Origin: Azolla caroliniana
Lineage: Eukaryota > Plantae > Polypodiophyta
Reading direction: 5' to 3'
Assembly: GCA_043228905.1 (NCBI GenBank)
Contig: JBHGNT010000014.1
Span: 8,556,001-8,620,000, forward strand
Length of the DNA stretch: 64,000 nucleotides
Part shown: positions 26,010 through 64,000 of the stretch, piece after piece
Position numbering within the stretch: position 1 is the stretch's first letter
Layout of the letters: the number at the start of each line of letters is the position of its first letter
Made by a program: the position numbers and the translations under genes
The notes under the pieces: generated by a model
Seen by the model: the letters and a program-made list of their open reading frames with translations, nothing else
Told to the model about the DNA's origin: nothing
Database searches by the model: none

Positions 26010-29000
26010 TGTCGTGAAGAAAACCGTCCCTTAGCGTAATTGGTGCATAGCGCGCGTGAACCGGCTCTTCACGCGTGCGCGCCCTTTAATGTATACAATA
26101 GAGAATTGGGTACAAAGGTATATCCTAGGTAGTTAGATTCGGTAGGTAGGAAGTTAATGAGGGAAACGGCTCCCCTCTTGAAGCTATAAAAGAGAGAGAG
26201 ATGCGGGGAGACAGGGCATTAATTTTTATTGAGGAGGACGAAGTGTTGTCGGACCGAAACCGAACGCTTCTCCTCTGTTCGTTCTCCATCGCTCTTCTCT
26301 ACAGGTTTTCGGGAGGCTCGCGTTGCTTCGAGGAACGCCCGTGTGCTTCCGGCAACACCTCCATCCTATCCCCTTTCGTGCGCAGACGAGCAGGCATCAA
26401 CATCTGTTCGCCGGCCTGTTCGGTTGTAACCGCTCGCGTGCTTTGTTGTTTATTTGTCATTCATTAATATACAAACATTCGTGTCTCTCTGTCTTTGTGT
26501 CCATCCGTGTCTTCTGCGTTGACAGGGCCGTGTCCCTGAGTTTCTTTGCTCATACGTAACCGAGCGTCTCTCTCTTTCTCTTTCCCCTTCTATCACCTGC
26601 TCTTTGGTTCAAGACCCTGGTGGTCCCGCCTCGTTCTCCACGCACGCGCGTAGTAACGCGACATCTTTGGTGAACCCGACGTGAACAAGGCGGCAAAGAA
26701 CCAAGAAGATAAGGACGGCATTCGGTTCCCAATCCGGTTCGGTGCGAAGGTCCTCAGCGAGCGACATCGAGGATATGCCCAGGTTAAATGCGAACTCTGG
26801 GGTATCGTTTCGGCGGTGAAGGCCGATAAAGACTATCTGATCGGGACAGAGGTGATTATCGAGATGGACTGCCTGCCGATTCTCGGCATGGTTTCCGGAT
26901 GCGCAACCCCGGACCTGGCAATGCTCAGGTGGATAGCGTACATCAAGTCCCTGGATCCGGAAATACGACACATTTCCGGGAGAGACAATGCCATGGCTGA
27001 CATGCTTTTGAGGGCGCGATTCGACGACGAGGGCGGCATGGTTTCGGAGGACGAGGAAGTCGGCGTGGACTTCTTCGAGGCGGCTTACGTAACAACCAAA
27101 GGGGGGAGCACTCCGGCGCTTAACGATTTCAACGAGAGCAAGTATGATGGGGAGTGGCTGCAGATTGGGGGATTCTTGAGGACGATGACGCCGGACGCGT
27201 CATGGACAAAGAACGAGGCCAACCGGATCCGAAGGAAAGCATACTGATTCTTTCTCCGGGACGGATACTTGTGGAAGCACCCGAAGAAGAGAAACGACAT
27301 CCCGCTCTGAGTAGTGGCGATGGAGGAGGAACAGGAGGAGTTGTTGAAGACCTACCACGACAGCCCCTGGGCTGGACACCGTGGGACGTGGGCCACGTTC
27401 GAGAAGCTAAAGGGGAAGTACTGGTGGCCGGGACTGTACCAGGACGTGCATCGGTTCGTGACAACTTGTGAGAGCTGTCAGATACACTCCATAGTCCGAC
27501 ATCGGGACGAGCTTCACCCTACATACCCTCCGGCCATCCACTTCAAATGGATGGTAGATTTGGTGACGATGCCGATGGGCGTAGGGCAGATGCGATATCT
27601 GGTACTGGCCCGGGAGGACCTGACGAACCAGGTGGAAGGCCGAGCCTTGTAGAACAAAACGACCGCGGCCGTGTGTCGGTTCTTGATCGAGGACGTGATA
27701 TGCCGGTACGGGTGCGTCAGGAAGATCGTGGCTGACCGCGGGGAGTTGGACGCCGAAGAGGCCGAGGAGCTGTTCGACCGGTTAGGGGTCAAGCTCTCGC
27801 TCACCACAGCGTACAATCCGGAGGCGAACGGGAAGGTGGAGCGCGGACACGGACCGATCGTCAAAGCGCTAGTCCAGGCGTGCGGAGGCCAGGTCGGGAA
27901 CTGGCCATGACTGTTACCTTATGCCTTGTGGGCGGACTGGACAACGCACAGTTCGGTAATCGGGTTCATGCCGTCAGAGCTCATGTTCGGACAGAAGCCG
28001 ATCATGCCGATGGAACGGACGATCTCCTCTTGGGCGACAGTGGACTGGAGAGACGAGATGAGCCGGGAAGAACTGCTAACGGCGCGTATACGGCAGCTCG
28101 AGCGGAGGCCAGAGGACGTGGAACGAGCGGCGGAGAGACTTCGGACGGCGAGGATGAGGAACAAAGCCCAGTTCGACCGAACGCACCGGCTCCGACCAAA
28201 GAAAATCGAGGAAGGCGACTGGGTGCTAGTCTACGACAACAGCCTCGACAACCAGCACCGGGCAACACGGAAGTGAGCAAAGCGGTGGTTCGGGCCTTAC
28301 GTGGTAACTAGCGCCAACGACAACGGGACGTATCACCTGGCGGAACTCGACGGTACGAGGATGGTGATACCGGTAGCAAGGAAGCGGATCAAAGCGTGCA
28401 AGAAGCGCCACGACGGCGAACCGGATCTAAGAGGCCTGGACAACGACGACGAACAGTCCGAAACGGAGGACGAACCGATGGACGAGGAACCGGAACCCGG
28501 ACCGGTTTTCTCCAACCAGAACCCAATTTTGGCGCATACCGGTGGATGCGCGGTTAGGTGGGGGCGGATGTCGTGAAGAAAACCGTCCCTTAGCGTAATC
28601 GGTGCATAGCGCGCATGAACTGGCTCTTCACGCGTGCGCGCCCTTTAATGTATACAATAGAGAATTGGGTACAAAGGTATATCCTAAGTAGTTAGATTCG
28701 GTAGGTAGGAAGTTAATGAGGGAAACGGCTCCCCTCTTGAAGCTATAAAAGAGAGGGAGACGCGGGGAGACAGGGCATTAATTTTTATTGAGGAGGACGA
28801 AGTGCTGTCGGACCGAAACCGAACGCTTCTCCTCTGTTCGTTCTCCATCGCTCTTCTCTACAGGTTTTCGGGAGGCTCGCGTTGCTTCAAGGAACGCCCG
28901 TGTGCTTCCGACAGCACCTCCATCCTATCCCCTTTCGTGCACAGACGAGCAGGCATCGGCATCTGTTCGCCGGCCTGTTAGGTTGTAACCGCTCCCGTGC

Positions 29001-29222
29001 TCTGTTGTTTATTTGTCATTCATTAATATACAAACATTCGTGTCTCTCTGTCTCTGTGTCCATTCGTGTCTTCTACGTTGACAGGGCCGTGTCCCTGAGT
29101 TTCTTTGCTCATACGTAACCGAGCGTCTCTCTCTTTCTCTTTCCCCTTCTATCACCTGCTCTTTGGTTCAAGACCCCGGTGGTCCCGCCTCGTTCTCCAC
29201 GCACGCGCGTAGCAACGCGACA
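26010..29222 (+). mobile_element. Ty3/Gypsy element lacking gag-PR-RT (654-bp LTRs 26010-26663 and 28569-29222)
   Basis: TG...CA LTRs with ~21 differences by eye; PBS TGGTGAACCCGACGTGA (tRNA-Trp complement); RNase H (IIEMDCLP...NAMADML); integrase HHCC (YHDSPWAGH...CESCQ), core and GPY/F motif with several stops; PPT GGTGGGGGCGGA; 4-bp TSD ACGT. Confidence 0.92.
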
Positions 29223-33171: not shown

Positions 33172-35046
33172 ACATATTAATCGAGTGATGATATAAACCA
33201 TGTGTGGTCTTAAGGTGATTGAATGGCTCCCACACTTACCTTCTTGTCTTGCGATTTTTTAACTGATGAGTTGGGCTCTCCCAACATTGAGAAGTAAGGA
33301 TCTACCTCCCTATACAATGACCCAATCTTCGTTTCCATAGTGTGCTTGTGCTTGTGCTTGGCAATTGTTTAAGCATTTGTCTTGAAATGCACCTTATGCA
33401 TAGACACCCATATACTCAAGTTTTATTTACATTTTGTGGGGCGGGCAAGCTCAACCGGATCCGGATCGGCTGAATAAGCTTGAGTCGGATCGTATCCGGA
33501 AGGATGAGCCGGATTCAAATGTGAACCGGAAAGCTAGTAGTAGCCTATACGCGTCTAGACTACTAGGTAGTCAGAGTCCTCATAGTTAGTATCAGTCGCT
33601 CGTATGAGCATTGAAGTACATGGTACTTCTGTCAATCCTCCAAGGACTTGTATAAATAGTGATGTCAAGCACGTTGTATGTACAAAGAGTAACAGAGTAT
33701 TGTTACTTTTTTAATAGAGTTTATGTTCTGCTCTCTTTGTCTCTCCCACAGATATTCTCTGTGTTAAGGTTTCCATTAAACCTCCTCTCTTTTTCTGTTG
33801 TTATCCGACGGAGCCGGTTTTGTCAAACGCTTCCGCATGTTTACTTTCACATGGTATCAGAGCGCGAGGGTTGAGAACCTTTATAGACGACAGACACCTT
33901 CGAAGACAAACCCTAATTCCCAGTAAGGATAGATAAAGAAAGATATGGACAGAGGTATGACGAGTTCACTTCCCACATAGAAGCTCGACCGGAGCAACTA
34001 TGCGTCTTGGTCATATAAAATGCACCAGTACCTGCTGGGGCATGTATTTTGGAGCTACATGGAAGGAACCAACGAGGTAGCGTCGGAGCCGGCACACAAG
34101 GACTTCCCGGCATGGGAGCAAGGAACGAGCTGTGTACTGTATTGCCTCGTCTCTTGTGTGCACGACTAGATGATCGGCTACATCAAAGATGTTAAGACGC
34201 TGAAATAGGCCTGGGAGAATCTGAAGAAGATTTTCGCAACAAGTACCTCTACCCTGGAAGCTTCAGCTTTGGCAGGAACTGAACAATATCCAACAAAGGG
34301 ATACTTCAGTTACAAACTACACCGCGAAGATAAAGGAGATTTGTGACACATTAGGGTCCATTCAGGTCACAGTAGATGAGGAAGAAATGGTGCAAATCTG
34401 CTTCGGTGGTCTGGCTCAAAGGTATGGGCCTATCCAGACAGCTATCCTCACTCAGGAGAAGCCACTATCCTTCTTCGACTTGCAATCGATGCTGATGGTC
34501 GAAGAAAACCACGCAAGTGGGTCCAATCCCACTCAATCGGACAACCGGATGTTATACACAGAGGCGGATCGGCCCCATGGGCGTGGTGGACATGGTGTGT
34601 CGGTACACAATGGAGGCGGCCGCCAAGAGCAGGACCGAAGGCACAAGGATAGTGCTGACAGCAGTTCCGAACCCTCCACAAGCAGGGGGAGTCAAAGCAG
34701 CGTCGGAAACCAGCAAGGAAAAGCCGACACGGAATGCTAGTATTGTGGTAGAAAGGGCCACAGAGAAAGCGAGTGCTGGAAGAAGCGCGCCGACTCAGAT
34801 AAATCCCAGACAAGGGAACCGACAAAGCTCGCACTACGCCGAAGGATCGGAAGGATCCAGAACCGGGAAGACCAGTAAAGGGCCAGCCTTCGTGATGAAG
34901 CACAAGGCTAATTCGATGAGGAAGAATACTTCCAAATCGGAGGAAGTATGGTACGTTGATTCCGGGGCGTCTAACCATATGACAAGCCATGAAGAGTGGT
35001 TCTACTTTTTGGAGAAACCAGAACAACCGGGGATTGTCGAGACCGG

Positions 35047-35774: not shown

Positions 35775-38720
35775 CCGGAGACGACAACCCTCACCCAATT
35801 ATGCATGTCGAAGAAGTCCCTTTAAGCCATGACAGACAAAAGGGAAAGCTAATGAACGTATTACACGTTCTAACATTCACAAAGAACCTGGTATCGGTCA
35901 AACAAATCGTCAACCAGGGAATGCATGTGCGGTTTACGCACCTCGGGTGCTTCATCGAGGAAGAAGGCCGGATAATTGCGCGAGGGCGCAGAGAAGGGAG
36001 GATGTTCATCCTCAACACTAATGATGTCGACACCGCCATGTTTGCCGAAGGACAGAAGATTGAATCGGACATCGATCTCTTGCATAAGCAGATCGGCCAC
36101 GTCAACTACGGGAGGCTTCAAGATCTACAGTCGAAACAACTTGTGTTCAGATTGCGAAGTTTAGTGGCCGGAAGGCCCAAATATGTGAAGCCTGCCAACT
36201 CGGGAAGCAACATCGGCTTCCATTCCCCCACCGAACGAAACCGGAGCCGTAACAAGCTCGACTTAATCCATTCGGATGTATGGGGACCGGCACAAAATGT
36301 TAGTCTTGGGGGGAGTCGGTATTTCGTCTCCTTCATCGATGATTATAGCTGGCACACGTGGATCTACCTCATCGAGAAGAAAAGTGAAGTCTTCGACTGT
36401 CGAAAGGGAAACGGAGAGGAAGATAAAGTGCCTGTGGTCGGATGGGGGAAAAGAATACTTTTCCAGCCAATTCAACAGTTATTTGCAACAGAATGGAATT
36501 CGGAGAGAATTCAATTGTCGATACACACTGGAACAAAACGTTGTGGCCGAGATAAAGAACCAGTTCATTGTCGACGCAACAATGGCAATGCTAGAGGAGA
36601 AGAGCATGCCCAAGTTCTACTGGGTTGAGGTGGTTCAGACGGTCGTCTACATCCAAAACCGGATCGGTGACAAGGTGTTAGCACATGAGTTGTATTTCGG
36701 GCAAAAACCAAATTTGAGACACCTTCGGATATTTGGTAGCATAGCATATATGCATGTACTAGATGAGAAGCGGAGGAAGCTAGATCCGAAGTCAGAGAAG
36801 TGCATCCTAGTTGGTTACTCACATGAGCAGAAGGGGTATAAGTGATATAACCCCCAGACTAAGCAGGTCCGAGTAAGCTGAGATGTCGAGTTTGATGTGT
36901 CAGCATCATGGTACTCTCTACCGACTCCAACTTCCAACTCTGTCCCAATTCCGGAAGATGAGGTTTGCGGCCTCAAAGTCTGACTCTTCATTGTTCATCC
37001 GGAACGGTCTGGATAGTCCGATTTGCATTTTGCTTTATGTAGATGATTTAGTCATCACCGGACCCGGACTCGATGGAATTGGCCAAGTGAAGTCCTAGCT
37101 ATCAGGCGCATTTGAAATGAAGGACCTAGGGGAACTTCATTTCTTTCTTAGGATCGAGGTGATCTAGACCCCCGGCAACATATTTCTCTCACAACGACAT
37201 TATGTGTTGAATATGTTGTACAAGTTCGGCATGACTGAATGCCGCCCGATCTCTACACCCCTAGACCGGAACCTGAAGCTACGTCCCGACTCCGGTTCGG
37301 CCTGCAATGAGAAATGGTTCTGACAAATTGTCAGAAGTCTTGTATACTTGACGATCACCCGACCTGACATCAGTTATCCAGTTGGGGTTATCAGCCAGTT
37401 TATGCAGAAACCAACCGTGGTGCACCTTAAGTGCACGCATCGCCTATTCCGATACATGAGCAACACTAAGGACCGGGGACTGTTATACCAACACGGTATA
37501 GCTGTAGAGCTAGTCGGATACACAAATGTCGATTGGGCTGGTGATGCATTGGTCTGTTGATCCACCTCCAGCTTCATCTTTTCTCTTGGTAGTGCAGTTG
37601 TTGCTTGGAGCAACAAAAAGCAACCAACAGTGCCTCTGTCAAGCACTGAGGCTGAATACCGGGGCGCTACCATTTCCACCTGTGAAGCCATCTAGCTTCA
37701 ACAACTGCTGCGAGACCTCCGGATCAAGGTGCCGACCCCGATCCTAATCTACTGTGACAACATAAGCAACATCCAGCTCGCCAAGAATCTTGTATTCCAT
37801 GCTCGAACAAAGCACATAGAAGTGCATTATTGCTTTGTTCGTGAATGGATCCTGAGCGGTGACGTTGAACTTCGTTATGTTCACACGAATCGGCAAGTTT
37901 CCGACATCTTCACCAAGCCGCTCAGATCGGACAAGTTGCAACACTTTTCAGAGATGCTAGGCATTCAACATCTCGACGTGCCACACTTGAGGGGGAGAAC
38001 AGGAACGGGAACGGGAACGGGAATGAGTGGCATCGGACAAGGAGCCGAAGAGGAAGAAAGAACCAAGGGGGAAGATAAGTAAAAAAAGGAAGCCGAGCCG
38101 ACCAAAGGAGTCGACACATCCGAACAAGTCGGAGCAAGCGGCAGAGGCGGCAGAGTCAAGAAGGACAGAGCCGACCATAAGAAGAAGGCCAAGACCCGGA
38201 CATGGTCTGATATGGTGAAGGGCCTGAAAACTGGAGACGAGTTGGAGAACACCAACTTAGACAAGAGCCGGAACGAATCAGAAGCAACCGATTCGCACAA
38301 GAGCTGGAACGAATCGGAGACACCCGATTTGGTTCAACAGTTGGATTTGGAAGAGTCAGATCAATTAAAGGCCATGCGTACTAAGAGGCAGTGGAAGTCG
38401 ACGCCAACACGAAGGAACCGACGGGTCGACAAGCACCATAGTTGCGGCAGCGAAGAAGCTGACATGGGCCTACTGAGCAGACAAGCCAACCAAGGAGGTC
38501 TAGGTGCGCGGAACCGGACAGATTGCAAGAAGCGGAACCGAACCGGACAAGGTGCGTGAGCGAGGCGAGCGAGCGAGAGGAGCTGGAGAGGAGAACCAGC
38601 TATTGCAGACACTGACACCACGATCCGACCTCAAGATGAGCTTGAGGGGGAGTGTTGAGCGGGCAAGCTCAAACGGATCCAAATCGGCTGAATAAGCCTG
38701 AGCCGGATCATATCCGGAAG

Positions 38721-51440: not shown

Positions 51441-54400
51441 CATAGATTGAAGCATGCGTGATATGCGTGGTATTCGACATCCGCAATATTCGTAGTATTC
51501 GAGAATATAAAATTGCTCCAAGAATATTATAAAACCATTCGTTTATGGAAAATAAATTTATATAATAAAAATTATTCAATTCACTCAAAAAAAAAAGGAA
51601 AAATCACCAATTTATAGAAAAATGGAAGGTCTTCAAAATCACACTAACATAAGAAAGAAAAGTTTTAATTAAAGCGATTATGAGCCGTTATATTGTAATT
51701 TCTAAATTCTAGGTTCTAACTTCTAACTTCTAAGTAATGCTTCGAAATGCTTAAGACTCTATGCACTATCACATTCATCATCCGTATCTTCAAGCTCATC
51801 CATAATGTCCTTATGAGCTTCATTTTCATCAATAGCTTGATTTTGCATTCTCAAAAGTCTCTCATCATCTTCTTCTTTGTTGATCATATCTAATGTTGCT
51901 TCAATTATGCATAATCCCCTTTCCTTTATTCTTCTTATGAGACAATGATTTGCATGTATGTAAACCAATTTCTCAACATGAGCATGAGTCAATCTATTTC
52001 TTTTTTTTGTATGTATCGATGAGAATGTACTCCAATTTCTTTCACAAGAAGATGCACATGAACCTTGAGAAAGCACACGAATTGCAAGCCTTTTTAAGTT
52101 TGGAGTGCTTGCTCCAAATGTTTCCCACCACTTAATTGCATCATGCATTCTAGTTGGATCATTTGCCATAGGAACTTGAAATGAACTCTTTTGTTGAGTT
52201 TTATAAGCATAGAATTCATCTAATAAAACACCACATAAAGGTATATCACCATTAGTATACCGCATAATAGTTTCCATCCAACTTGTATTCAGCTTCTCAT
52301 CAATATCTTGAATTTTTTCTCTCCAAATTGGATGTAAAATAAAACCAGTTGCATGCAATGGTGAATGTAGCATTGTCCATCTTTGCATACATATTTCCCG
52401 AATTTCATCAAGCAATAAACGATCTACATCTTCAATGTGGTTTATTTCTTCTATCATACGATGAGTACATTCATAAATTAAACCCATGGTTGCACCTTCT
52501 CTATCCGCCAATCTAAGAACTTTTAGGATAGGCTTGCATATCTTTACGATCTTCTTTATATTTGCCCAAAAAGAAACATCAAGTATAATTGAAACTATTT
52601 CTTCTCCTAGTTGTGTTTTTGATCCTTTCCATTGACACCATTGTTCACTAACCACCATTCTTTGTAATCCACCTTTGACTCTGTCATCCAATAAGTTTGA
52701 CAACATGATAAAACTATAGGCAAATCTAGTAGTGGAAGGCTTTAACAATTCTTTCTCACTAAACTTACGAAACATTGCCAAAGAATATTGTTTTCGTGTA
52801 ATAAACACGATTACCTTTGTAGCTAATTTCAAAACATCATGAACCCAAGCACATTTTCCAATATCTTCAAACAACAAATCGATGCAATGACATGTGCATC
52901 TGGTAAAAAAGATCATGGGCCACTCTTTCTCTATCATCCTCCCAGCTACTACACAATTAGTTGCATTGTCCATACAAACTTGCACAACATTTGATGGGCC
53001 AATATCAAGAATAACATCCTTTAAAATCTTAAAGATATACTCTCCCGATTTATATTCTCCACTAGTGTCAACTGATTTCAGAAACACAGTGCCATACGCA
53101 GAAGTAGCCATCACATTAATTATTGGTCTATTCTTGGTATCTGACCAACCATCGCTCACAACAGTGCATCCAATAGTTTTCCATTTTTCTCTAATTTGCA
53201 TAATCTCATTTTCAACATATTTCACCTCTTCATTCAAGTGCTTTTTGCGCAATTGATAAGGAGATGGTGGCTCATAAGACGGCCCAGCAAGTGCCGCAAC
53301 TTTTATTAATTCACGAAAATATGTACTTCCCACTTTTACATCCGGTATATCCTCTACAAAAAAAAACCTCCTGATAGCTTCATCAACATTTTTATCAAGT
53401 TGCTTTTGCCATAACATCTTCAAAGGTACATTGTCTACTTTCATCTTTTTACTTGATGCATTACCAAACGATGATGAAGGCATTTCATTGATAGACGTTG
53501 ATTCCACATTCGCATCAACATTTGTGCTACAATTTTCAGCATTACATTCCATTGATGACTCATCATTCATGTCAACATTTGCACAACCAGATACCATTTT
53601 TTGTACTTCGGCTTTTATAACAGCATCAATTTGACGGCATTTGTCAACACCTAAACCTTTCAAGCCCAACAAGTGAGCTCTAATTCGAAAGGGGCCACCA
53701 ACAAATACATGGTGACAATGATTGCATTGAACAACATGCATACCCTTATCATGTTTTCTCAAAATGGCCACATGATTCCATTCGAAGCTCTTTTGTTTCA
53801 CCATTGTGTAAATTAACCTTCAGCCTTTGTTGTTCCCTGGACCCTAACCTATGAGAATAACTAAAAGAATTAGGCGACAGTGAACTATTCCATAATGCAA
53901 TGTTCTTTCATTGCACTCTGATTTGGTTTTTTCTGCACTTTGGAACATGCACAAGCAAAGGAGACTCTTCATTCCTTTGGTTGCATTGTTTATTAGAGCA
54001 ACTTCTTCATAGTACATATGCACATGGATTTTTTCATTTCTATATTTTGTTGCATAATGCAGAATAAACAAAATCTGACTACAAGGAACGAATTATGATT
54101 TATGAAATGAAATTCTAGAACAAATTCGAGAACAAAAAATTCGATGAAAACCAAATTCGAGAACAAAAAATTCTCTCTCTTCTCTCTCGTGAGAGAACAA
54201 AACTACACGAAAGAGCATATATTTCTTGCAGGAAAATCAGAGGAGAAGCAAGAGCATACCTGAATCTGTTGTTTCTGTAGACTGCGAAGAAGAAGAGATT
54301 GCGCGCAGGAAGATGCAGAGGAGGATTGGAGCTTCAATGGGAGCAGGCGAGAGAGAAAGGCAAGAAAACAGAAAGTCTCTGTTCGCTACTCGTCGACTGA

Positions 54401-55742: not shown

Positions 55743-55967
55743 GTGTAAGCCGATTGGTTGTAGCTGACTTGGACTGGGAATAGAGTGTGTGTGTGTTAAA
55801 CATGCAATAAGGTATCTTCTGTGTGAGTTTACCTTTGCCTACATCTATGTGAAATGCACCGTGAGCAGTGCAACCTAGTCCCCGTTACCCATCCCTCCAA
55901 CCACAAAACCTTGATCAAGGTACTTAGGGATTAAGTATCTGACGCCTGTTTTTAGGGAATAGTAACA

Positions 55968-58900
55968 CAATTTGGCACACGTGGTTGATCTGTGAGAGAC
56001 AACAAACAAAGGGAGGGTGGATGTCGCCTAGTCATAGGAGACCACACACACAGTCAGACTCCCGATGGGTAGAACAAGATATTTCTTCGGAAATGGCACT
56101 TCCGGAAAAACCTCAACAGGAGCAAGACAACGATTTAGTAGTGCTTCATGGTTTGGAAACTACCAACAACCATAGTTTAGAGGTCGAATGGTCCGAAAAT
56201 CATAGACTGCGAGACAGTAGCCCACATCACCGGTTAATGGTGTCGTGAAGATTTCCGGCTACGGTGAGAAACTCGGGTGGGACAAATAAAATGGGGATGT
56301 GCAACATTGCACATGCACTTGTAAATTTGTATAATGAGAATAAGATAACAAAATGTTAGGGGAAGGGTAATAATCTAAGGCGCTAAAGGTGCACCATGGG
56401 GTTCGTAGAGGCATAAAGGTGATGTGCACTTTGTAGACTAGAGAAAAGTACATGAAGAATAGGTGTAGGGAGTAGTGGGCATTGAGTGTGAATGTGAGAG
56501 GAGAGAGAGTTAAAGGCCCACCAATTTAAGATAAAGGAAAATATTACCCATTGAAAGAAGGGTATTTGACCTCTCCTTTTGTAATGTGCCTCACCCCTTA
56601 CTACTATAAAAGGGAATGAGGGGTCTCTTGTGGTTGGTTGCCTATTTTGAGTGAGGAAGGGCTTCCACTTTTGGGGTTTTCTTTGGGGAGTCGCCATTTT
56701 GTTGTTTCGGGGTAGACCATTAGGGTTTTAACGATCCCTATTTCGTTTTAGGGTTTGGGGTTTTAGGATCTTGTTTTAGGGTTTCATTCATTCATTCTTC
56801 TTCTTCTTTACCTATCTGGTTAGGGTTTCTTCTTGGGTTTTGATTTGGCTTATGCGACCATGGTTGTAATCATAGAGTGGATTCTTAATATAGTTTGTTG
56901 ATGTATCTTGTCTCTATTTTCTCTACCATGCTAACATCTCATTCTATCTCCTTTCCTCTTGAGCTCAAAGATCGAAGGTTAAGCTCCCATTCCCCCTCTA
57001 CTCCCTAGTCCAAGACCCCCGCAGTCTCGCCTAAGATCCTACACATGCCCGCTGAATTCCGCGACAACGGTAATTCAAGAGGAAGACACAATGTCGTACC
57101 CATACTCCAAATATAACGATGAGGCCGATGTTGAAGCGGATGTTTGCGCTTTTCTTACTACATGGCTGCCCAACCACGCATCGCAATGACTAGCAGTAGC
57201 CGACGCAGATGCGTTGAAGACCGACGCAATGTACCCTATAGGTACAAAGTGTTGTGAAGAGGACGGAGAAACAATCTCGTGATTCAACGTCACCACCCTC
57301 GGACCCCGGCGAAAAGAAGTAGACGTAAAGGACGAAGAACTGGTACAACGAGTCACACGTCCAGGTGACGTCATGACCACTCAGAAGACTATGATGGACG
57401 CGGACTTCCTAGAGTATTTCAAACTCTATGAACAAGGGAATAGGGCAGTGGCTTGTAAGAGACCACAACGCACCCCCAAGGCCTAGGAGAAGTCTATGAT
57501 GGACCAACAAGGGTGAAAGAAATCAACCTCGGGAAAGGGACAGACTGCAAACTGGTGTTCATAGCCGCAGATCTCCAGCCTGACGAGGAGACGTCCTTGA
57601 TCACCCTCCTCACGAAATTTAGCGACGTGTTTGCATGGTTATACGTCGACATGAAGGGAGTCCTAGATGAGGTCGTCACCCATAGTATCCCCATGCGAGC
57701 CAACACCCGCCCAATCCGGCAAAGGCCATGTCCAATGAACCCTAACTACGCCCAACAAGTAAAAGCCGAAATCAACAAAATGTTGGCTGCAGGCATTCTC
57801 TACCCAATCGAACGAACTACTTGGGTCTCCCCGATTGTAGTCGTCCCAAAGAAAAACTGCTAGATCCGCATATGTGTCAACTAATGCCAAGTTAACAAAG
57901 CCACTATCAAGGACAATTACCTAGTACCCTACATCGAGCATCTACTCGAAAGAACCGCGGGAGCAGAAGCTTATAGCTTCATCGACGGGTTCTCCGGGTA
58001 CAACCAAATCTCGGTGGTCCCTGAGGATCAACACAAGACAGCCTTTGCCACGGAATTTGGTACGTTCGCGTATAAACAAATGCCTTTTGGACTCACGAGT
58101 GCCTTGAGCATCTACCAAAGAGTGACGGACCATATCTTTGCAGCAAGGTTACGACAAGGGGTGGAGTCTTATGTTGACGACTTATGTTGCAATTCGAAAT
58201 GGCATGACCACTTGGGGCTACTCCGTTTGACGTTCGAAAAATGCAGGACCTATCAACTCTCTCTCAACCCGCTCAAGTGTCAGTTCTGGGTCAAGCACGG
58301 AATAATATTAGGACATGTTGTGTCCCGCCACAGGATCTCGACCGATGAGGCAAAAGTAAAACTCATCCTTGACATGCCAGCCCCCACGAATGAGAAACAA
58401 CTACAAGGGTTCATGGGATACGCGGGTTACTATAGACGCTTCATTAAGATGTTCGTGGACAAGGCTAGACCACTCTACACCCTATTAAAGCAGTTCGTGT
58501 GGACAGAAGAATGCACACACTCCTTCAAGCTCTTGAAAGAGTGCCTAACTAAGGCCCCCATCCTCCGGCCTCCCAATTGGACCAAAGAATTCCATGTTCA
58601 CACCGACGCTTCCGCCTTCGCGATCAGTGCAGTGCTAGCTCAACCTGGTGAAGGGGCACTCGACCTACCGGTCACCTTCGCTAGTCGCCAACTAAATGCC
58701 GCGGAACGAAATTACTCCATGATGGAACGGGAGGCTTTGACCATGGTTTACAGCATAAAGAAATTCATCCACTACCTTTTGGCGTCCCGGTTCTCATTTT
58801 TTGGAGATCATCAAGCCCTACTCTACTTAGTAAACAAAACTCATGCCACCGGACGCATCTCACGATGGATCGTAACGTTACTTGAGTTTGACTTCAATGT

Positions 58901-59346
58901 AGTAGTGAGAAAAGGGAAAGACCATGTACTCGCCAATCATTTCTCCCGGATTCCCAACGGAGAAGAAGCCACTGGGGTCGACGATGAAACACCAGATGCA
59001 ACATTATTCGTGATCGACACCGTACCAACATGGGTATCAGACATCGTTTGCGTCCTAACTGAAGGAGCGTCCTTCCTAAAACAACTACCAAGGACACATG
59101 CACGTGTCTTGCTAAAGAAATGTGGCCCCTTCATGATGCTCCGTGGCAATTTGTACCGTCGGGGTAACGACGATCTACTTCGGAGGTGTGTAACAGACCA
59201 TGACATCGTCGCCACCCTCGAACAAGCTCATTGTGGGAGCAGAAGTGGTCCTTTCAATCACGAGACCACTGCGCGCAAGATCCTCCAGTCCGTCCTATGG
59301 TGGCCAACACTCTTCAAAGATGCATACGCGTACATACGCCGTTGTG
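55968..59346 (+). mobile_element. Degenerate Ty3/Gypsy (Athila/Tat-like) gag-pol, interrupted by a solo LTR and by another Gypsy element
   Basis: Gag N-terminus (MSYPYSKY...FLTTW); RT WVSPIVVVPKK, FIDGFSGYNQI, MPFGL, YVDD; RNase H HTDASAFAISAVLAQ; integrase start H...WWPTLFKDA...RC, cut at 59346. The 5' LTR boundary is not resolved. Confidence 0.85.
56241..57066 (+). mobile_element. Solo LTR of the TGTCGTGAAG...GCGACA lineage inserted in gag
   Basis: Same termini as the LTRs at 26010/28569; flanks ATGG/ACGG (4-bp TSD with a CpG transition); removal restores the frame HRL-T-VIQEEDTMSY. Confidence 0.8.
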
Positions 59347-62300
59347 TGTTATTGCTAGGGCCGGACAACAGCCTAACACAAGGTGTCCACTTAAGACACG
59401 TCACCAAAGGGTGGTACATCAGAATGACTTACGACACAACGCTTAATTAGACCTTAATCGATTACTTAGCCATCCGTAATTAACACGCGTAAGATATAAC
59501 AATGAATACAAAACGGTAATCAACACTGGAAGATTAAGACAATAAGCTTTTTTAATTATCCGCTCCTGATTACATTGTAACCGGGCCTTTATATAGGTCT
59601 CCGGTGCGAAATACAAAACGGTGCCAACCGGCACCTTTACAGGATCGTTCCGGATCCGGATCGGCATACCGATTCCGGTCCATCCGTCCACATCTTCTTA
59701 TATAATAATCTATATATATATATTAAGACTACTAATTACAACAGTTCCCGAATAACTATTCCTTTCACACTCTGGCTTGGACCTCCTTAAGCCTTCTTGC
59801 CGGCCGGTAACACATGGCACGCCCGTGGGACAGTACCTTGTACGTCGAACCCACTATCCGGCCCTTTTACGCTTCGTAAAAAATGTCCAGAATGCTTTGC
59901 TCCAAAATTTCCAATGGCTCGTCGGGAATCTGTTGTTGCTGTTGTGGCTATGGCCGCTGCTCTGTTTGTGGCTGTGGCTCCGTTTGTTGCTCTGGCACCG
60001 GCGTTTCCGTCGTTGGTTCCTCCGTCGAAGTTGTTTGTGGCCAACTGACCCCGGCCTGTTCCCCCTTCGGTCTTTGCACCGGCGACGGTTCCTCATCACT
60101 AAGGTTGACCGTTGCCGCCTTTTGCGCTTTTTCTTCCCGTAGTTGGGATCGCTCATAGCTTTCGAACTGGATTTGAGCCTCCAGCCGATCGTCGTCCAGT
60201 TGAGCTACGAGCTGCCGGACCTGGACCAATTGTTCATCCGCCAGGGCTGTGAAATCTTCTGCCATCTCATCCCTTATGGCGGTGAAGTCCTCCGAGGTCA
60301 TCGTATAATAGTCGTCGCCCTCCTTTCACCGGTTTTCCACGTCCGCCCTAAGCAAATGGAGTTCCGCCATATTCTGCGCCCATTTTGCCCACCAATGCAC
60401 CGAGCTGTCGTCAATCAAGCTTTTGGTCTTAGTGAGCCATGACCGGAGGATGCACTGGATCCGTTCGGCTCCCATCTGTGATTTATTTTATGTAGCTTGT
60501 CGCTCTTCCTTCAATTGCTTGATGATCCGAACCGTGTCCGCCTCCTGCTCCCTATAATGCGACAATTGATTTTGATAGGTTGTTTGCAACCTTTGTAATA
60601 CCATTGTCGCCCTTTCCTTGTCTTCATGGTTCTGTTTGTGGAGCTCCATCCGGTCATTCGCCGCTTCATCCAATAGCCTGGAACTTTCCGCTCGTTCTTC
60701 GGCGAGTGCCGTTGTGGCCCTATCAACTTCTTGCCGGAGCTCGGCCATCCGTTCTTGTTGTTGCTTATGCTTCGTCTCCAGCTGCTTGTAGTCCGATGCA
60801 GATGATCGAAATCATCGGTCTTCTGCTTCAGCCTTTGGTTGATCTGACGACGCGCGTGGTCCTCCCGGTCCTTCTGTTGCCGGAGCTCTTCCTTCAGCCT
60901 CTCGATTTCCGTTTCCGCCATCCGTCGCAGCTTGTCTTTTTCCTGCAACAATTTCTCTTTTTCCTCCTTCAGCCGGTCGTAAGCATGATGTCCTTTACGT
61001 AGGTTTTCCTTTGCCCAGCGAAGGTTCTCAGCAGTCTTCCTTAATTCTTCTTCGGCCGCCTTCTTCAAGTCACGTTCACGGCTCCGTAATGCTTTTTGTG
61101 CGGCAAGCTCATCTCGTAATTCCGCAAGCTCTTGGGCTTGTGCCGCATCTTTCTCCGGGATAATTTGTGTCTCCGGGGTCTTATTCTTTTGTACATCAAC
61201 CGGAGTCACCGGTGCTTGGATCTGCGTTGCGGTTAAGGCCATTTTGGCCATATCTCTTGTGATCCGATCCAAGGCTTGTTCAAGGCACCAGATCCTTGAC
61301 CGGGCCGTCTCCAGTTCATCGGTTGTGACGAGCAACCGTTCCGTTTGCGCTCTTTCCTCCGCCTCTATGCATCCGACTACTCCGGCAATTTGGTCTCCTA
61401 TCCACCGGAGCCATTGGCTGCCGGTGCACTGTTGTTGCGCTTGCACGGGGAGTTGGCTGATGGGTTCACTCGCCGGTGGCTAGTCCCGCCTTTTTGCGTC
61501 AAGCTGTGCTTCTGGTTCTGCCAACTAACCCTTGTCTGCTTGTTCTTGGCCGGCTGGGGCGGTTGACCTTTGTATATCCGGCTCTTGGGTGACGGGGCTT
61601 GCCGGTGTTGCCAGTTGTGCCGGGACTTTTGTGACCGGTTCCATCCGAACCGGTTCCGGTGCCTCCCTTGGCGTGGGTTGCTCAGCGTGAGTTGTGGGCG
61701 TTCCATCCTTTTGTGGGTCCGAATGCTTCCCGGCTGATTCAGCGGTGCTCTTCACCGGCCGCCGCTAGAGGTGCTCCGTGGGTTCTTCCTCCATTTCTTC
61801 CGCCTGAGTCCTGACATTCATTCTTGCCGCTAGGGTGTCCGTTTCTTGTTGCACCGGTCGGTGGAGTGGGCTCTTCAGGGGCCGTGCCAGTGTCTCCTCA
61901 CTTGCATCCGTCGGCCGCTTCCGGTTGGCGCGCTCCTTCGCCGCCTTCTCTGCATCGGCAGTCTTCCCCTTAGTGGCCTTGGAGGCCAACAATTGTTGCC
62001 GTTTCGAAGCAGGTTTCGGGGTGCCGTCCGTTGCTCTTCCCCGCTTCTTGGTTTGGACGGGCTCGACCGGTGGTGCCAACAGGGTGGGCCATTGTGTCAC
62101 CGCATGCCATATTTTTCGGCCTTCCTTGCCGTCCTTTCCTCTTACTATATCAATGGCCATACATAGCCCGTCGGCGATCAACACCGGCCAGTCTACCTTG
62201 ACCCCTTCGTACGTTGCGATGATCAAGCCTGCTCGGTTCTGAGGCATGACGGGGGCTCGAGGGTACACGTGGCCGAACTCGTTGAGCACACAGGCAATTT

Positions 62301-64000
62301 CGCGGAATAGCATATCTTCGCTGCCCTGTGTCCTGTAGCCCTTGCTGGCTAGAGAGTACTCACCGAAATATTTGATGAGTTGCTCGGAGGTAGGATTGTC
62401 GATCGTGTAGATACCTCCCTCCGGAAGGCCTATTAACGCACGGATCGCCTCCTCTGTGATCACCTCTGTGTTGATTTCTTTTATAATCTTTTCGGCCTCC
62501 TTGTGTGGCGCTGCCTCCATGATCGTTAAGAAACCCTCCTGACCGTGTTGTCGTAACCATTTCTTGGCGGCTTCAGAGAACGTTTGGCAGTCCATCTCTG
62601 CGTCGAGGTCGGAGAGCGTTGGCGAGGTTTGATGGTGGGGAGAGTGTGAGAGAGAAAGTTCTGAGGGAGGGGGTTCTCTGTGTGCGAGCTCTCTACGATT
62701 TATCTTCACGCGTCGCTCTGTGTCTGTTCTCCTTGGTTCGCGATAGGAGAAGGTCTCGATGCGTGGGGGTTTTTCTCTTTGCATCTTGGCGCCTTCTTCG
62801 AGCCTCCGCATGTGCAGGTCGTGTACTATAATAGCATTGCGTGCCATGTGGCGGTGGTTTAATGTCCTATTCATAGCTCCTCGTACCTTTTCGACGTGCC
62901 TCTTTACTCCTCATGTGCATGGCCGTTTCCACCACTCCTTTCCATGATTTCTTTGATTCGCTCCTTTATTCTCTTTTTCTTTTTCTTTTTTTCTTTTTTT
63001 TTTTATATAACTTACTTGTGTGGTTAGTTTTTCTCCGGTCCTGTCGGACCCTTGCCCGAAGCGTGCAACTTGCCGGCCTCTTGACGGTTTGCCGTCGTTC
63101 TGCTCTCCTCGGTTGCCGGCTCATGCTCCTCCTTACTGGCTTGGTGGTAGCTGTCGTCTTCACCGGTTGCTGTTATGGTTGGCCTGTCGGCGTCTAATTC
63201 GGTGGCGGCCTTTCGTTCAAATGGGTTCTTAGGCATAGGTCCTTTGTATGGTTTTAGTCTAAATCTGTTGACCTATTTGCCCAACACTTCTCCGGCAAGT
63301 GTCCCCAACTGGTAGGACCCATTGAACTCGCGTGTGATCCAATACGGTTCGGTTCATCTAAACCATAGTTTACCTGGCATTTTGCCCATCCGGGTCTGGA
63401 ACACGAGTACTGGCTTGTCGGTTCCGAACATCTTTTCGTTTCCCTTCCAGTGCCGATCTACAAATGCTTTCCGTCTTCGTTGTTCCAATTCCAGGTGCAT
63501 AATGCTCGCCCTTCGGAGTTCTTCTAGTTCGCACAGAGCCTTTAACCGAATTGCCTCCGATTCCTTTTCGTTCAATCGTTCCCGAATCTGAATCCGTAAG
63601 CTTGGTACATGGAACTCGACCTGCATGACTGCCTCCAATCTGAATGCTAACCAGAACGGTGTTGTTCAGATGCTTGTTTTGTACGTTGTTCGGTAAGCCC
63701 AGAGCGCACTGTGCAGCTTCGTATCCCAATATGTCTGATTTTCATTGACGATCTTCCGGAGGATATTCTGGAGCGTTTTGTTCGTCGTCTCAGCTAACCC
63801 ATTTGCTTGCGGATAGTACGGTGTGCTTCGTTTATGTACTACCGCATAGAATGTCGTCAAACTTTCTACCACCTGTCCAAGAAAGTACCCTCCTTGGTCG
63901 CTTATCAGCTCTATGGGGCATCCATACCGGCACTAAATGCATTCGTATAAGAATTTCGCCGTTGACGCCGCGGTGTTGTCTCGTAGGGCTTTCGCTTCCA
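59347..64000 (-). mobile_element. Ty3/Gypsy element, partial (runs off the window): LTR 59347-59812, integrase and a large extra ORF on the minus strand
   Basis: TGTTA...TAACA LTR interrupts the host integrase. Minus-strand integrase RYGCPIELISDQG...STPYYPQANGLAE...ALWAYRT, with pol ending at 63024. Confidence 0.85.
59876..62874 (-). pseudogene. Extra ORF (~900-1000 codons) between integrase and LTR: PMD-like N-terminal region plus long coiled coil
   Basis: ORF-track pieces 61765-62874, 61525-61755 and 60511-61446 share one frame separated by TAG stops; later pieces follow after frameshifts. Motifs ITEEAIRALIGLPEGG and KVDWPVLIADGL. Confidence 0.6.

What the first reader, a model, noticed from the sequence alone, without database searches (positions are those of the whole stretch)
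59813..59854. Gypsy element with a split tRNA-Arg-complementary site where the polypurine tract should be (PBS antisense to all ORFs)
Seen: immediately inside the LTR (59347-59812) the + strand reads TGGCACGCCCGTGGGAC (59815-59831), a 13-nt insert AGTACCTTGTACG (containing a GTAC-nnn-GTAC mini-hairpin), then TCGAACCCAC (59845-59854). Integrase and the extra ORF are both on the minus strand, no LTR boundary is visible between them and this site, and the LTR's CTATATAAAGG box (59586-59596) also points minus. There is no purine tract on the minus strand here. Established: plant tRNA-Arg(UCU) ends ...GTGGGTTCGAGTCCCACCGGGCGTGCCA (recalled, not searched); a PBS normally follows the 5' LTR on the coding strand and a PPT precedes the 3' LTR. 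Inference: either the genomic RNA carries a tRNA 3'-half mimic so that a tRNA or the mimic primes plus-strand synthesis instead of a PPT, or the family reverse-transcribes an RNA antisense to its mRNA. Either would be an unusual replication system.
Basis: partly seen in the sequence, partly recalled or inferred. Interest (0 to 1): 0.8.

Follow-up and report, generated by a model that had tools for sequence, protein, structure and literature searches.

The report
tRNA site replaces retrotransposon polypurine tract
A high-copy lineage of jumping genes, likely from a land plant, lacks the purine-rich signal that normally starts the second DNA strand and carries in its place a conserved copy of an arginine tRNA's tail, so a second tRNA likely starts that strand, a route our literature searches did not find described.

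Summary
The window holds the 3' end of a minus-strand, non-chromovirus Ty3/gypsy element inserted into another Gypsy pol gene. Two bases before its 3' LTR the coding strand reads as a tRNA 3' half ending in CCA, split by a 13-nt hairpin. No purine tract is there. In 21 related metagenome contigs, 15 of 20 readable upstream LTR junctions carry this site; the other five are unrelated flanks. Ten of 16 readable downstream junctions carry a different, ordinary-strand PBS followed by gag-pol. So the family has two tRNA-shaped sites on opposite strands and no PPT at either LTR. This removes the single-inversion reading and makes antisense replication unlikely. An unrelated LTR family keeps the site with compensatory hairpin changes. 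Best reading: host tRNA-Arg(UCU) anneals to minus-strand cDNA and primes the plus strand (0.5). Main rival: the element's own CCA-ended RNA is the primer (0.25). Priming is untested, and the host tRNA set was unavailable. Nine paper searches found no description. This scan noted the same feature earlier on other pieces of this genome.

The parts
59347..59812 (-). 3' LTR (466 bp, TGTTA...TAACA) of the element
   Evidence: homologous 443-454 bp LTRs in related contigs
59586..59597 (-). TATA-like box; sets LTR polarity along the coding strand
   Evidence: (motif in the window and 19 of 21 loci), strand
59813..59814 (-). 2-nt spacer between the CCA and the LTR
   Evidence: 2 nt in all 17 site copies (the search pattern required it); TG in 15, CG in 1, AA in 1
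59815..59831 (-). Block 1: copy of tRNA positions 59-76 ending in CCA, one acceptor-strand base short; a tRNA-complementary site on the cDNA (+) strand
   Evidence: identical in 12 of 17 copies
59832..59844 (-). 13-nt insert with a 4-bp, 3-nt-loop hairpin, at the tRNA 58|59 boundary
   Evidence: the four pairs are kept in 15, 16, 17 and 16 of 17 copies; two double changes in the unrelated family of L017
59845..59854 (-). Block 2: copy of tRNA positions 49-58 (T-arm 5' strand and loop); often with one extra A
59867..62910 (-). Extra ORF after pol (about 1000 aa in relatives, coiled-coil-like C-half, no Pfam family); broken by stops and frameshifts here; ends about 13 nt before block 2
62969..63004 (-). 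A-rich purine run between integrase and the extra ORF; 3.1 kb from the LTR; no run of 13 or more at this place in L021
63024..64000 (-). Integrase core and C-terminus (78% identical to L021 pol), with a stop; runs off the window
57885..59346 (+). Older Gypsy RT-RH-INT interrupted in the integrase zinc finger by this insertion (target site, not part of the element)

Best explanation
This Ty3/gypsy lineage has no polypurine tract at either LTR and likely primes both DNA strands with host tRNAs. Shown: on the coding strand the order is 5' LTR, CA plus a short T-rich spacer, a 12-18 nt PBS, gag-pol, an extra ORF, a split tRNA 3'-half copy ending in CCA, 2 nt, 3' LTR. Inferred: tRNA 1 primes minus-strand DNA at the 5' PBS as usual. 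After the first strand transfer, RT copies the 3' end and RNase H (catalytic residues intact in L021) removes the RNA. This exposes on the cDNA a site complementary to tRNA-Arg(UCU). The tRNA would dock by its last 11 nt, and possibly open further along blocks 1 and 2 with the 13-nt hairpin looped out at the 58|59 boundary. Its 3'-OH then sits 2 nt from U3, the position a PPT 3' end would take. RT would extend it into plus strong-stop DNA, RNase H would remove the tRNA, and integrase would trim the 2 extra bases present at both LTR ends.
For: Family-wide layout: 15 of 20 readable upstream junctions carry the site and none has a shared PPT; 10 of 16 readable downstream junctions carry the other PBS. 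Gag, pol and the extra ORF all lie on the strand of that PBS. The PBS junction is bridged by contigs shown for 3 of 4 runs, from two coded organisms. The site is a conserved island: in run X1 summed contig depth is 624k-664k over 59802-59849 against 116k and 80k in the neighbouring bins; diverse loose ends follow 59854 in all 4 runs (48, 56, 38, 13 contigs). An unrelated LTR family in L017 has the same site upstream of its TATA-bearing LTR, with a different spacer and two compensatory hairpin pairs. The sequence matches phage tRNA-Arg(UCU) 3' ends at 27 of 28 tRNA positions, and the insert falls where an 18-nt PBS ends. Bipartite tRNA sites that engage the T arm are known in Ty1 and Ty3 (PMC5371799, passages). 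RNase H D-E-D-D motifs are present. A control Gypsy in the same window has a normal PBS and a G-rich tract before its 3' LTR.
Against: No priming intermediate, RNA or cDNA end was observed. Block 1 is one base short of a real tRNA end in all 17 copies. The commonest block 2 variant (10 of 17) has an extra A that lengthens the self-hairpin but not tRNA pairing, which fits the mimic rival as well. A tRNA annealed to DNA is itself an RNase H substrate (established knowledge). The hairpin is not unusually stable (z -0.43 in the window; +0.37 to -2.61 over 10 distinct copies), and the compensatory changes come from one sequence. The 21 loci come from one accession series; 8 join both junctions on one LTR, so they are probably collapsed-repeat assemblies and not independent insertions.
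Confidence: 0.5

Rival explanations
1. Self-primer: the element's own RNA supplies the plus-strand primer. RNase H, tuned to cut after a tRNA 3' end, cuts the genomic RNA after the CCA of the mimic, and this fragment primes like a non-purine PPT. No second host tRNA is needed.
For: The site is one base short of a tRNA end, and the common extra A extends the RNA self-hairpin. In Ty3, PPT selection depends on hybrid geometry and an RT-specific fit more than on a homopurine run (PMC5371799, passages). Position and polarity are exactly those of a PPT.
Against: It does not explain why 27 of 28 positions of one tRNA species, including the T-arm 5' strand, persist across families whose LTRs and flanks cannot be aligned. 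Conservation against a fixed outside partner explains that more simply.
Confidence: 0.25
2. Antisense replication: the packaged RNA is antisense to the mRNA. The site is then the minus-strand PBS (canonical 2-nt spacing) and the site at the other LTR primes the second strand.
For: The 2-nt spacing and the bipartite T-arm pairing look like a textbook PBS. An AT-rich stretch lies on the + strand about 80-120 nt before the LTR end. In Ty1 and Ty3 the PBS is not refreshed from the tRNA, so the fixed one-base deletion does not exclude this.
Against: The conserved TATA box points along the coding strand. The coding-strand PBS has the offset from the LTR seen in Athila-like FIDEL (LTR ends at 1531, PBS at 1541; PMC2844528), and L014 carries a full 18-nt tRNA-shaped version. 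There is no PPT on the antisense strand either, so this model also needs tRNA-type second-strand priming.
Confidence: 0.08
3. The site is conserved for another purpose (packaging, circularisation, a decoy for tRNA fragments or for 3'-end processing enzymes), and the plus strand starts from a cryptic or random RNase H fragment.
For: tRNA-like 3' structures serve non-priming roles in other RNA elements (recalled). An internal purine run exists at 62969-63004.
Against: The CCA lies a fixed 2 nt from the LTR, mirroring the 2 nt at the other end. A precise primer is needed to define the U3 end. The internal purine run is 3 kb away and not kept in L021. No complement of 9 nt or more to the site was found elsewhere in L021, and none over 7 nt in the LTR.
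Confidence: 0.13
4. Artefact or single rearrangement: an inversion, chimera or nested insertion in this copy.
For: The other LTR and the target-site duplication of this copy lie outside the window. Many related contigs are collapsed assemblies.
Against: Window 59345-64000 is colinear with L016 and L021. The same junction is in 15 loci and, by depth, in 4 runs from 4 studies. Flank-anchored ends agree: site-LTR-unique flank in L002, L006, L015, L017 and the window; unique flank-LTR-PBS in L020.
Confidence: 0.03

Closest known systems
Athila (non-chromovirus OTA Ty3/gypsy; PMC6317226 passages, one part of the text and supplement 3; FIDEL, PMC2844528 passages)
   Same: GAG-PROT-RT-RH-INT order, no aRH, no chromodomain, an extra ORF in the 3' region, and a PBS set several bases off the 5' LTR.
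   Different: Athila has a PPT (core ttgggg), LTRs over 1.2 kb and mostly a tRNA-Asp PBS. This lineage has 450-bp LTRs, another PBS sequence and no PPT; its RT-RH is 38-43% identical and falls outside the angiosperm Athila-like clade.
Tat clades (TatIII, Ogre, Retand; PMC6317226 supplement 3)
   Same: Use tRNA-Arg as a primer; long region between pol and the 3' LTR.
   Different: Their tRNA-Arg site follows the 5' LTR on the coding strand and they carry aRH. Here the Arg site is inverted at the 3' LTR and no aRH was found.
Ty1 and Ty3 bipartite primer-binding sites with PPT plus-strand priming (PMC5371799, passages)
   Same: Split tRNA-binding site that pairs with the acceptor stem and the T arm; short PBS.
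   Different: Those sites are on the RNA and prime the minus strand; the plus strand starts from a PPT just upstream of U3.
Cer7 Bel/Pao element of C. elegans with a self-encoded tRNA-like primer (recalled; one search returned no paper on it)
   Same: A tRNA-like sequence in the 3' internal region on the sense strand.
   Different: As recalled, it is complementary to the element's own PBS and serves minus-strand priming. Here the mimic has no complement of 9 nt or more in the element and sits at the PPT position.

Membership tests
Ty3/gypsy LTR retrotransposon | Two direct LTRs with TG...CA ends | tested here: met
   One LTR in the window; the same LTR adjoins both the gag end and the extra-ORF end in relatives. 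No single intact two-LTR copy was seen.
Ty3/gypsy LTR retrotransposon | GAG-PROT-RT-RH-INT order | tested here: met
   Pfam on L021, L008, P0017, P0018; protease only as a weak hit
Ty3/gypsy LTR retrotransposon | tRNA PBS after the 5' LTR on the coding strand | tested here: met
   10 of 16 readable junctions; isoacceptor undetermined: 2 of 3 phage matches are tRNA-Asp(GUC)
Ty3/gypsy LTR retrotransposon | Polypurine tract before the 3' LTR (typical, not lineage-defining) | tested here: not met
   0 of 16 site-bearing junctions, window included; longest purine run 4 or less
Ty3/gypsy LTR retrotransposon | 4-5 bp target-site duplication | not testable with these tools
   Other end outside the window; no genome held
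Athila | RT-RH groups with Athila | tested here: not met
   Own clade (99/99) outside the 7-row angiosperm Athila-like clade (100/100); 31 rows, no topology test
Athila | tRNA-Asp/Asn/Ala PBS and ttgggg PPT | tested here: not met
   PBS differs from the FIDEL Asp site; no PPT
Tat (TatI-III, Ogre, Retand) | Additional archaeal-type RNase H domain | tested here: not met
   No such Pfam hit in L021 or L008 ORFs, P0017 or P0018
Chromovirus | Chromodomain after integrase; RT clade | tested here: not met
Phygy / Selgy | RT clade; no extra ORF; tRNA-Trp or tRNA-Ala PBS; 4-bp TSD | tested here: inconclusive
   An extra ORF is present, which argues against; no reference sequences were in the tree

The most novel reading that the evidence does not exclude
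An autonomous, high-copy lineage of plant LTR retrotransposons has abandoned the polypurine tract and uses two different host tRNAs: one on the genomic RNA for the minus strand, and tRNA-Arg(UCU) on the nascent cDNA for the plus strand. This would be the first LTR element or retrovirus in which a tRNA primes on DNA to start the second strand.
Probability: 0.5. Interest if true: 0.88.

Novelty: new variant of a known kind. Interest (0 to 1): 0.76.

Why it matters
tRNA for the first strand and a PPT for the second is the rule in the reviews read here for retroviruses and LTR retrotransposons (PMC5371799, PMC6317226, PMC11963269, passages). A successful lineage without a PPT would show that the rule can be broken. 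It gives a testable case of how RT and RNase H choose and remove primers, and it hints at how primer sites can arise from captured tRNA ends. In practice, annotation tools that orient elements by PBS and PPT would likely mis-orient or reject these copies. The symmetrical ends also make both strands potential targets of 3' tRNA fragments.

Tried and rejected
No whole genome is held, so no intact copy, target-site duplication or host tRNA could be read. The site pattern has 0 matches in viral contigs. The extra-ORF alignment was too variable for a locus search. The genome-contig scan gave 120 prokaryotic matches to a 16-mer; only 1 passed a loose context filter and none showed the LTR junction, so they were treated as unrelated. 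ARAGORN found no tRNA gene in the window. Rfam found nothing in L001-L020 at gathering thresholds (L021 not scanned) or in 59300-60100 at E up to 5. No RNA holder was listed, so there is no evidence on expression. Sequence-string paper searches gave nothing on plant elements; one HERV passage was read and is ambiguous on Arg versus Trp for a similar PBS. Five readable supplements of PMC6317226 held none of three motifs; its Additional files 1 and 3 were too large to read and may hold per-element PBS data. Rejected arguments: hairpin stability as evidence (z near 0); Tf1-like self-priming on the LTR (longest complement 7 nt); the idea that the fixed one-base deletion excludes a minus-strand PBS (Ty1 and Ty3 do not refresh the PBS from tRNA). 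Two rows (P0039, L008) were dropped from the tree as too short.

Full report
Observation. An LTR at 59347-59812 is followed on the + strand by CA, a 17-nt block, a 13-nt insert and a 10-nt block ending at 59854. On its other side the LTR interrupts the integrase zinc finger of an older + strand Gypsy pol, so that side is target DNA. Integrase and a long extra ORF lie on the minus strand, and so does the LTR's TATA-like box. The LTR is therefore a 3' LTR, and the site lies where a polypurine tract belongs. There is none: purine fraction 0.47, longest run 4. The 13-nt core occurs exactly once in the window.

Is it one odd copy? No genome is held, so I used public data. Contigs of four runs from four studies were laid on 59250-59950. 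The bins over 59802-59849 are among the deepest (X1: 624k and 664k, against 116k before and 80k after; only an LTR core motif is as deep). These figures are summed contig depths, not copy numbers. None of the 40 substitution rows shown falls in 59787-59849 (64 rows not shown). Loose ends with low agreement follow 59854 in all four runs. The site, insert included, is thus an island shared by families whose neighbouring sequence has diverged. Cover continues into the end of the extra ORF, and window 59345-64000 aligns as one block to L016 and L021. A hidden LTR or a private inversion is excluded.

The other junction. A scan of metagenome contigs with a 21-nt LTR core motif gave 21 loci. On the coding strand, 15 of 20 readable upstream junctions carry the tRNA-like site and 5 carry unrelated flanks (two of them the same flank). 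Ten of 16 readable downstream junctions read CA, a short T-rich spacer and TGGCGACCACGAT; 6 carry unrelated flanks. Gag starts within about 50 nt of that PBS. Gag, protease, RT, RNase H, integrase and an extra ORF of about 1000 aa all lie on that strand in L021, L016 and L008. Eight loci show both junctions on one LTR and are probably collapsed repeats, and all 21 come from one accession series. Flank-anchored ends agree, however (site-LTR-flank in L002, L006, L015, L017 and the window; flank-LTR-PBS in L020). Laying runs on L013, the locus closest to the window's LTR (90%), shows a local depth peak on the PBS and bridging contigs among those listed for 3 of 4 runs. The antisense strand at this junction has no PPT either. 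The offset PBS resembles Athila-like FIDEL (PMC2844528, passages). L014 has an 18-nt version with full tRNA 3'-end architecture. Its isoacceptor is undetermined: 2 of 3 phage matches are tRNA-Asp(GUC).

What the 3' site copies. Pattern scans of viral contigs returned tRNA-Arg(UCU) genes (1 of 1; 2 of 4 called, one being the same gene). Against L022 the site matches 27 of the last 28 tRNA positions, lacks one acceptor-strand base, and has its insert between positions 58 and 59 (numbering by standard tRNA architecture). These are phage tRNAs picked by the pattern, so they show shape and likely identity, not the host sequence. Among 17 copies block 1 is identical in 12. The four inner hairpin pairs are kept in 15, 16, 17 and 16 copies, and block 2 has an extra A in 10. 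The seventeenth copy belongs to an unrelated LTR in L017. It has a different 2-nt spacer, a TATA box downstream on the same strand, and two double changes that keep the hairpin. That is one sequence, not a statistical covariation result. Folding energies are unremarkable. As DNA, the cDNA strand is predicted to leave the first 10 nt of the site unpaired beside a hairpin, which would suit a toehold.

Placement. In an RT-RH tree of 31 rows (two rows dropped as short) the family forms its own clade (99/99) with unnamed metagenome proteins. It lies inside the non-chromovirus group (100/99) and outside both the angiosperm Athila-like and the aRH-bearing clades. No Phygy, Selgy or TatI-III references were included and no topology test was run. 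There is no aRH and no chromodomain. The RNase H catalytic motifs are present in L021. The host is likely a land plant (named relatives are plant elements; holders include leaf and plant metagenomes); a non-seed plant is my inference from a Phygy-type neighbour.

Mechanism. Shown: two tRNA-shaped sites on opposite strands, each facing an LTR, with 2 extra bases at both LTR ends and no PPT. Inferred: tRNA 1 primes the minus strand; after RNase H clears the RNA, tRNA-Arg(UCU) anneals to the cDNA and primes the plus strand 2 nt from U3 (0.5). The self-primer rival (0.25) is not separable by sequence alone; the missing base and the extra A lean towards it, while the long match to one tRNA across unrelated families leans against it. 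Antisense replication (0.08) would need an antisense promoter and would still lack a PPT. In Ty1 and Ty3 the PBS is not rewritten from the tRNA (PMC5371799, passages), so the missing base cannot be used against it. As a control, another Gypsy in the same window has a normal PBS and a G-rich tract before its 3' LTR.

Novelty. Nine full-text searches listed no paper describing a PPT-less LTR element with an inverted tRNA site. I read listings only, except passages of PMC6317226 (plus one part of its text and supplement 3), PMC5371799, PMC2844528, PMC4724089 and PMC11963269. The library lacks most subscription journals and Repbase, and the per-element table of PMC6317226 could not be read. Earlier notes of this scan describe the same feature on other pieces of this genome. 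They are unreviewed, I saw them after stating my reading, and I do not count them as support.

Verdict. A real, lineage-wide departure from the PPT rule in an autonomous Ty3/gypsy lineage; new variant of a known kind; mechanism untested. Interest 0.76.

Noticed in passing
window 26011-29222: Internally deleted Gypsy with 654-bp LTRs (96.8%), a long PBS after the 5' LTR, a G-rich PPT-like tract and a 4-bp ACGT target duplication. The NCGN target fits the Phygy description in PMC6317226; the tRNA-Trp call for its PBS is recalled.
   Followed up: partly
window 55956-55990: Possible 5' LTR end of the older + strand Gypsy: TAACA, a 5-nt spacer, then a TGGCAC-type PBS start; a second non-chromovirus lineage (89% to P0036) with an offset PBS. 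Its 3' junction is outside the window, so whether it also lacks a PPT is open.
   Followed up: no
window 59650-59681 and 33435-33502, 38653-38720: A CCGGATCCGGATCGG motif is the most conserved part of this Gypsy LTR (depth peak) and also occurs in the LTR region of a Copia-type element in the window; possibly a shared promoter element.
   Followed up: no
L017:1-380: Unrelated LTR family with the same CCA-ended site; only about 33 nt separate an upstream LTR-like end from the site, suggesting a very short or deleted element.
   Followed up: partly
L014 downstream of the LTR (622 bases): Full 18-nt tRNA-shaped PBS followed by sequence unlike the gag of L021: another subfamily or an assembly join.
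   Followed up: partly
window 59867-62910; L021:3319-6330: Extra ORF of about 1000 aa with no Pfam family and only 16 unnamed metagenome homologues for its N-terminal part; intact in L021 and L016; function not examined.
   Followed up: partly
window 51759-53819: Intact 686-aa ORF on the minus strand that looks like a hAT-type transposase with an N-terminal zinc finger (by eye; not searched).
   Followed up: no
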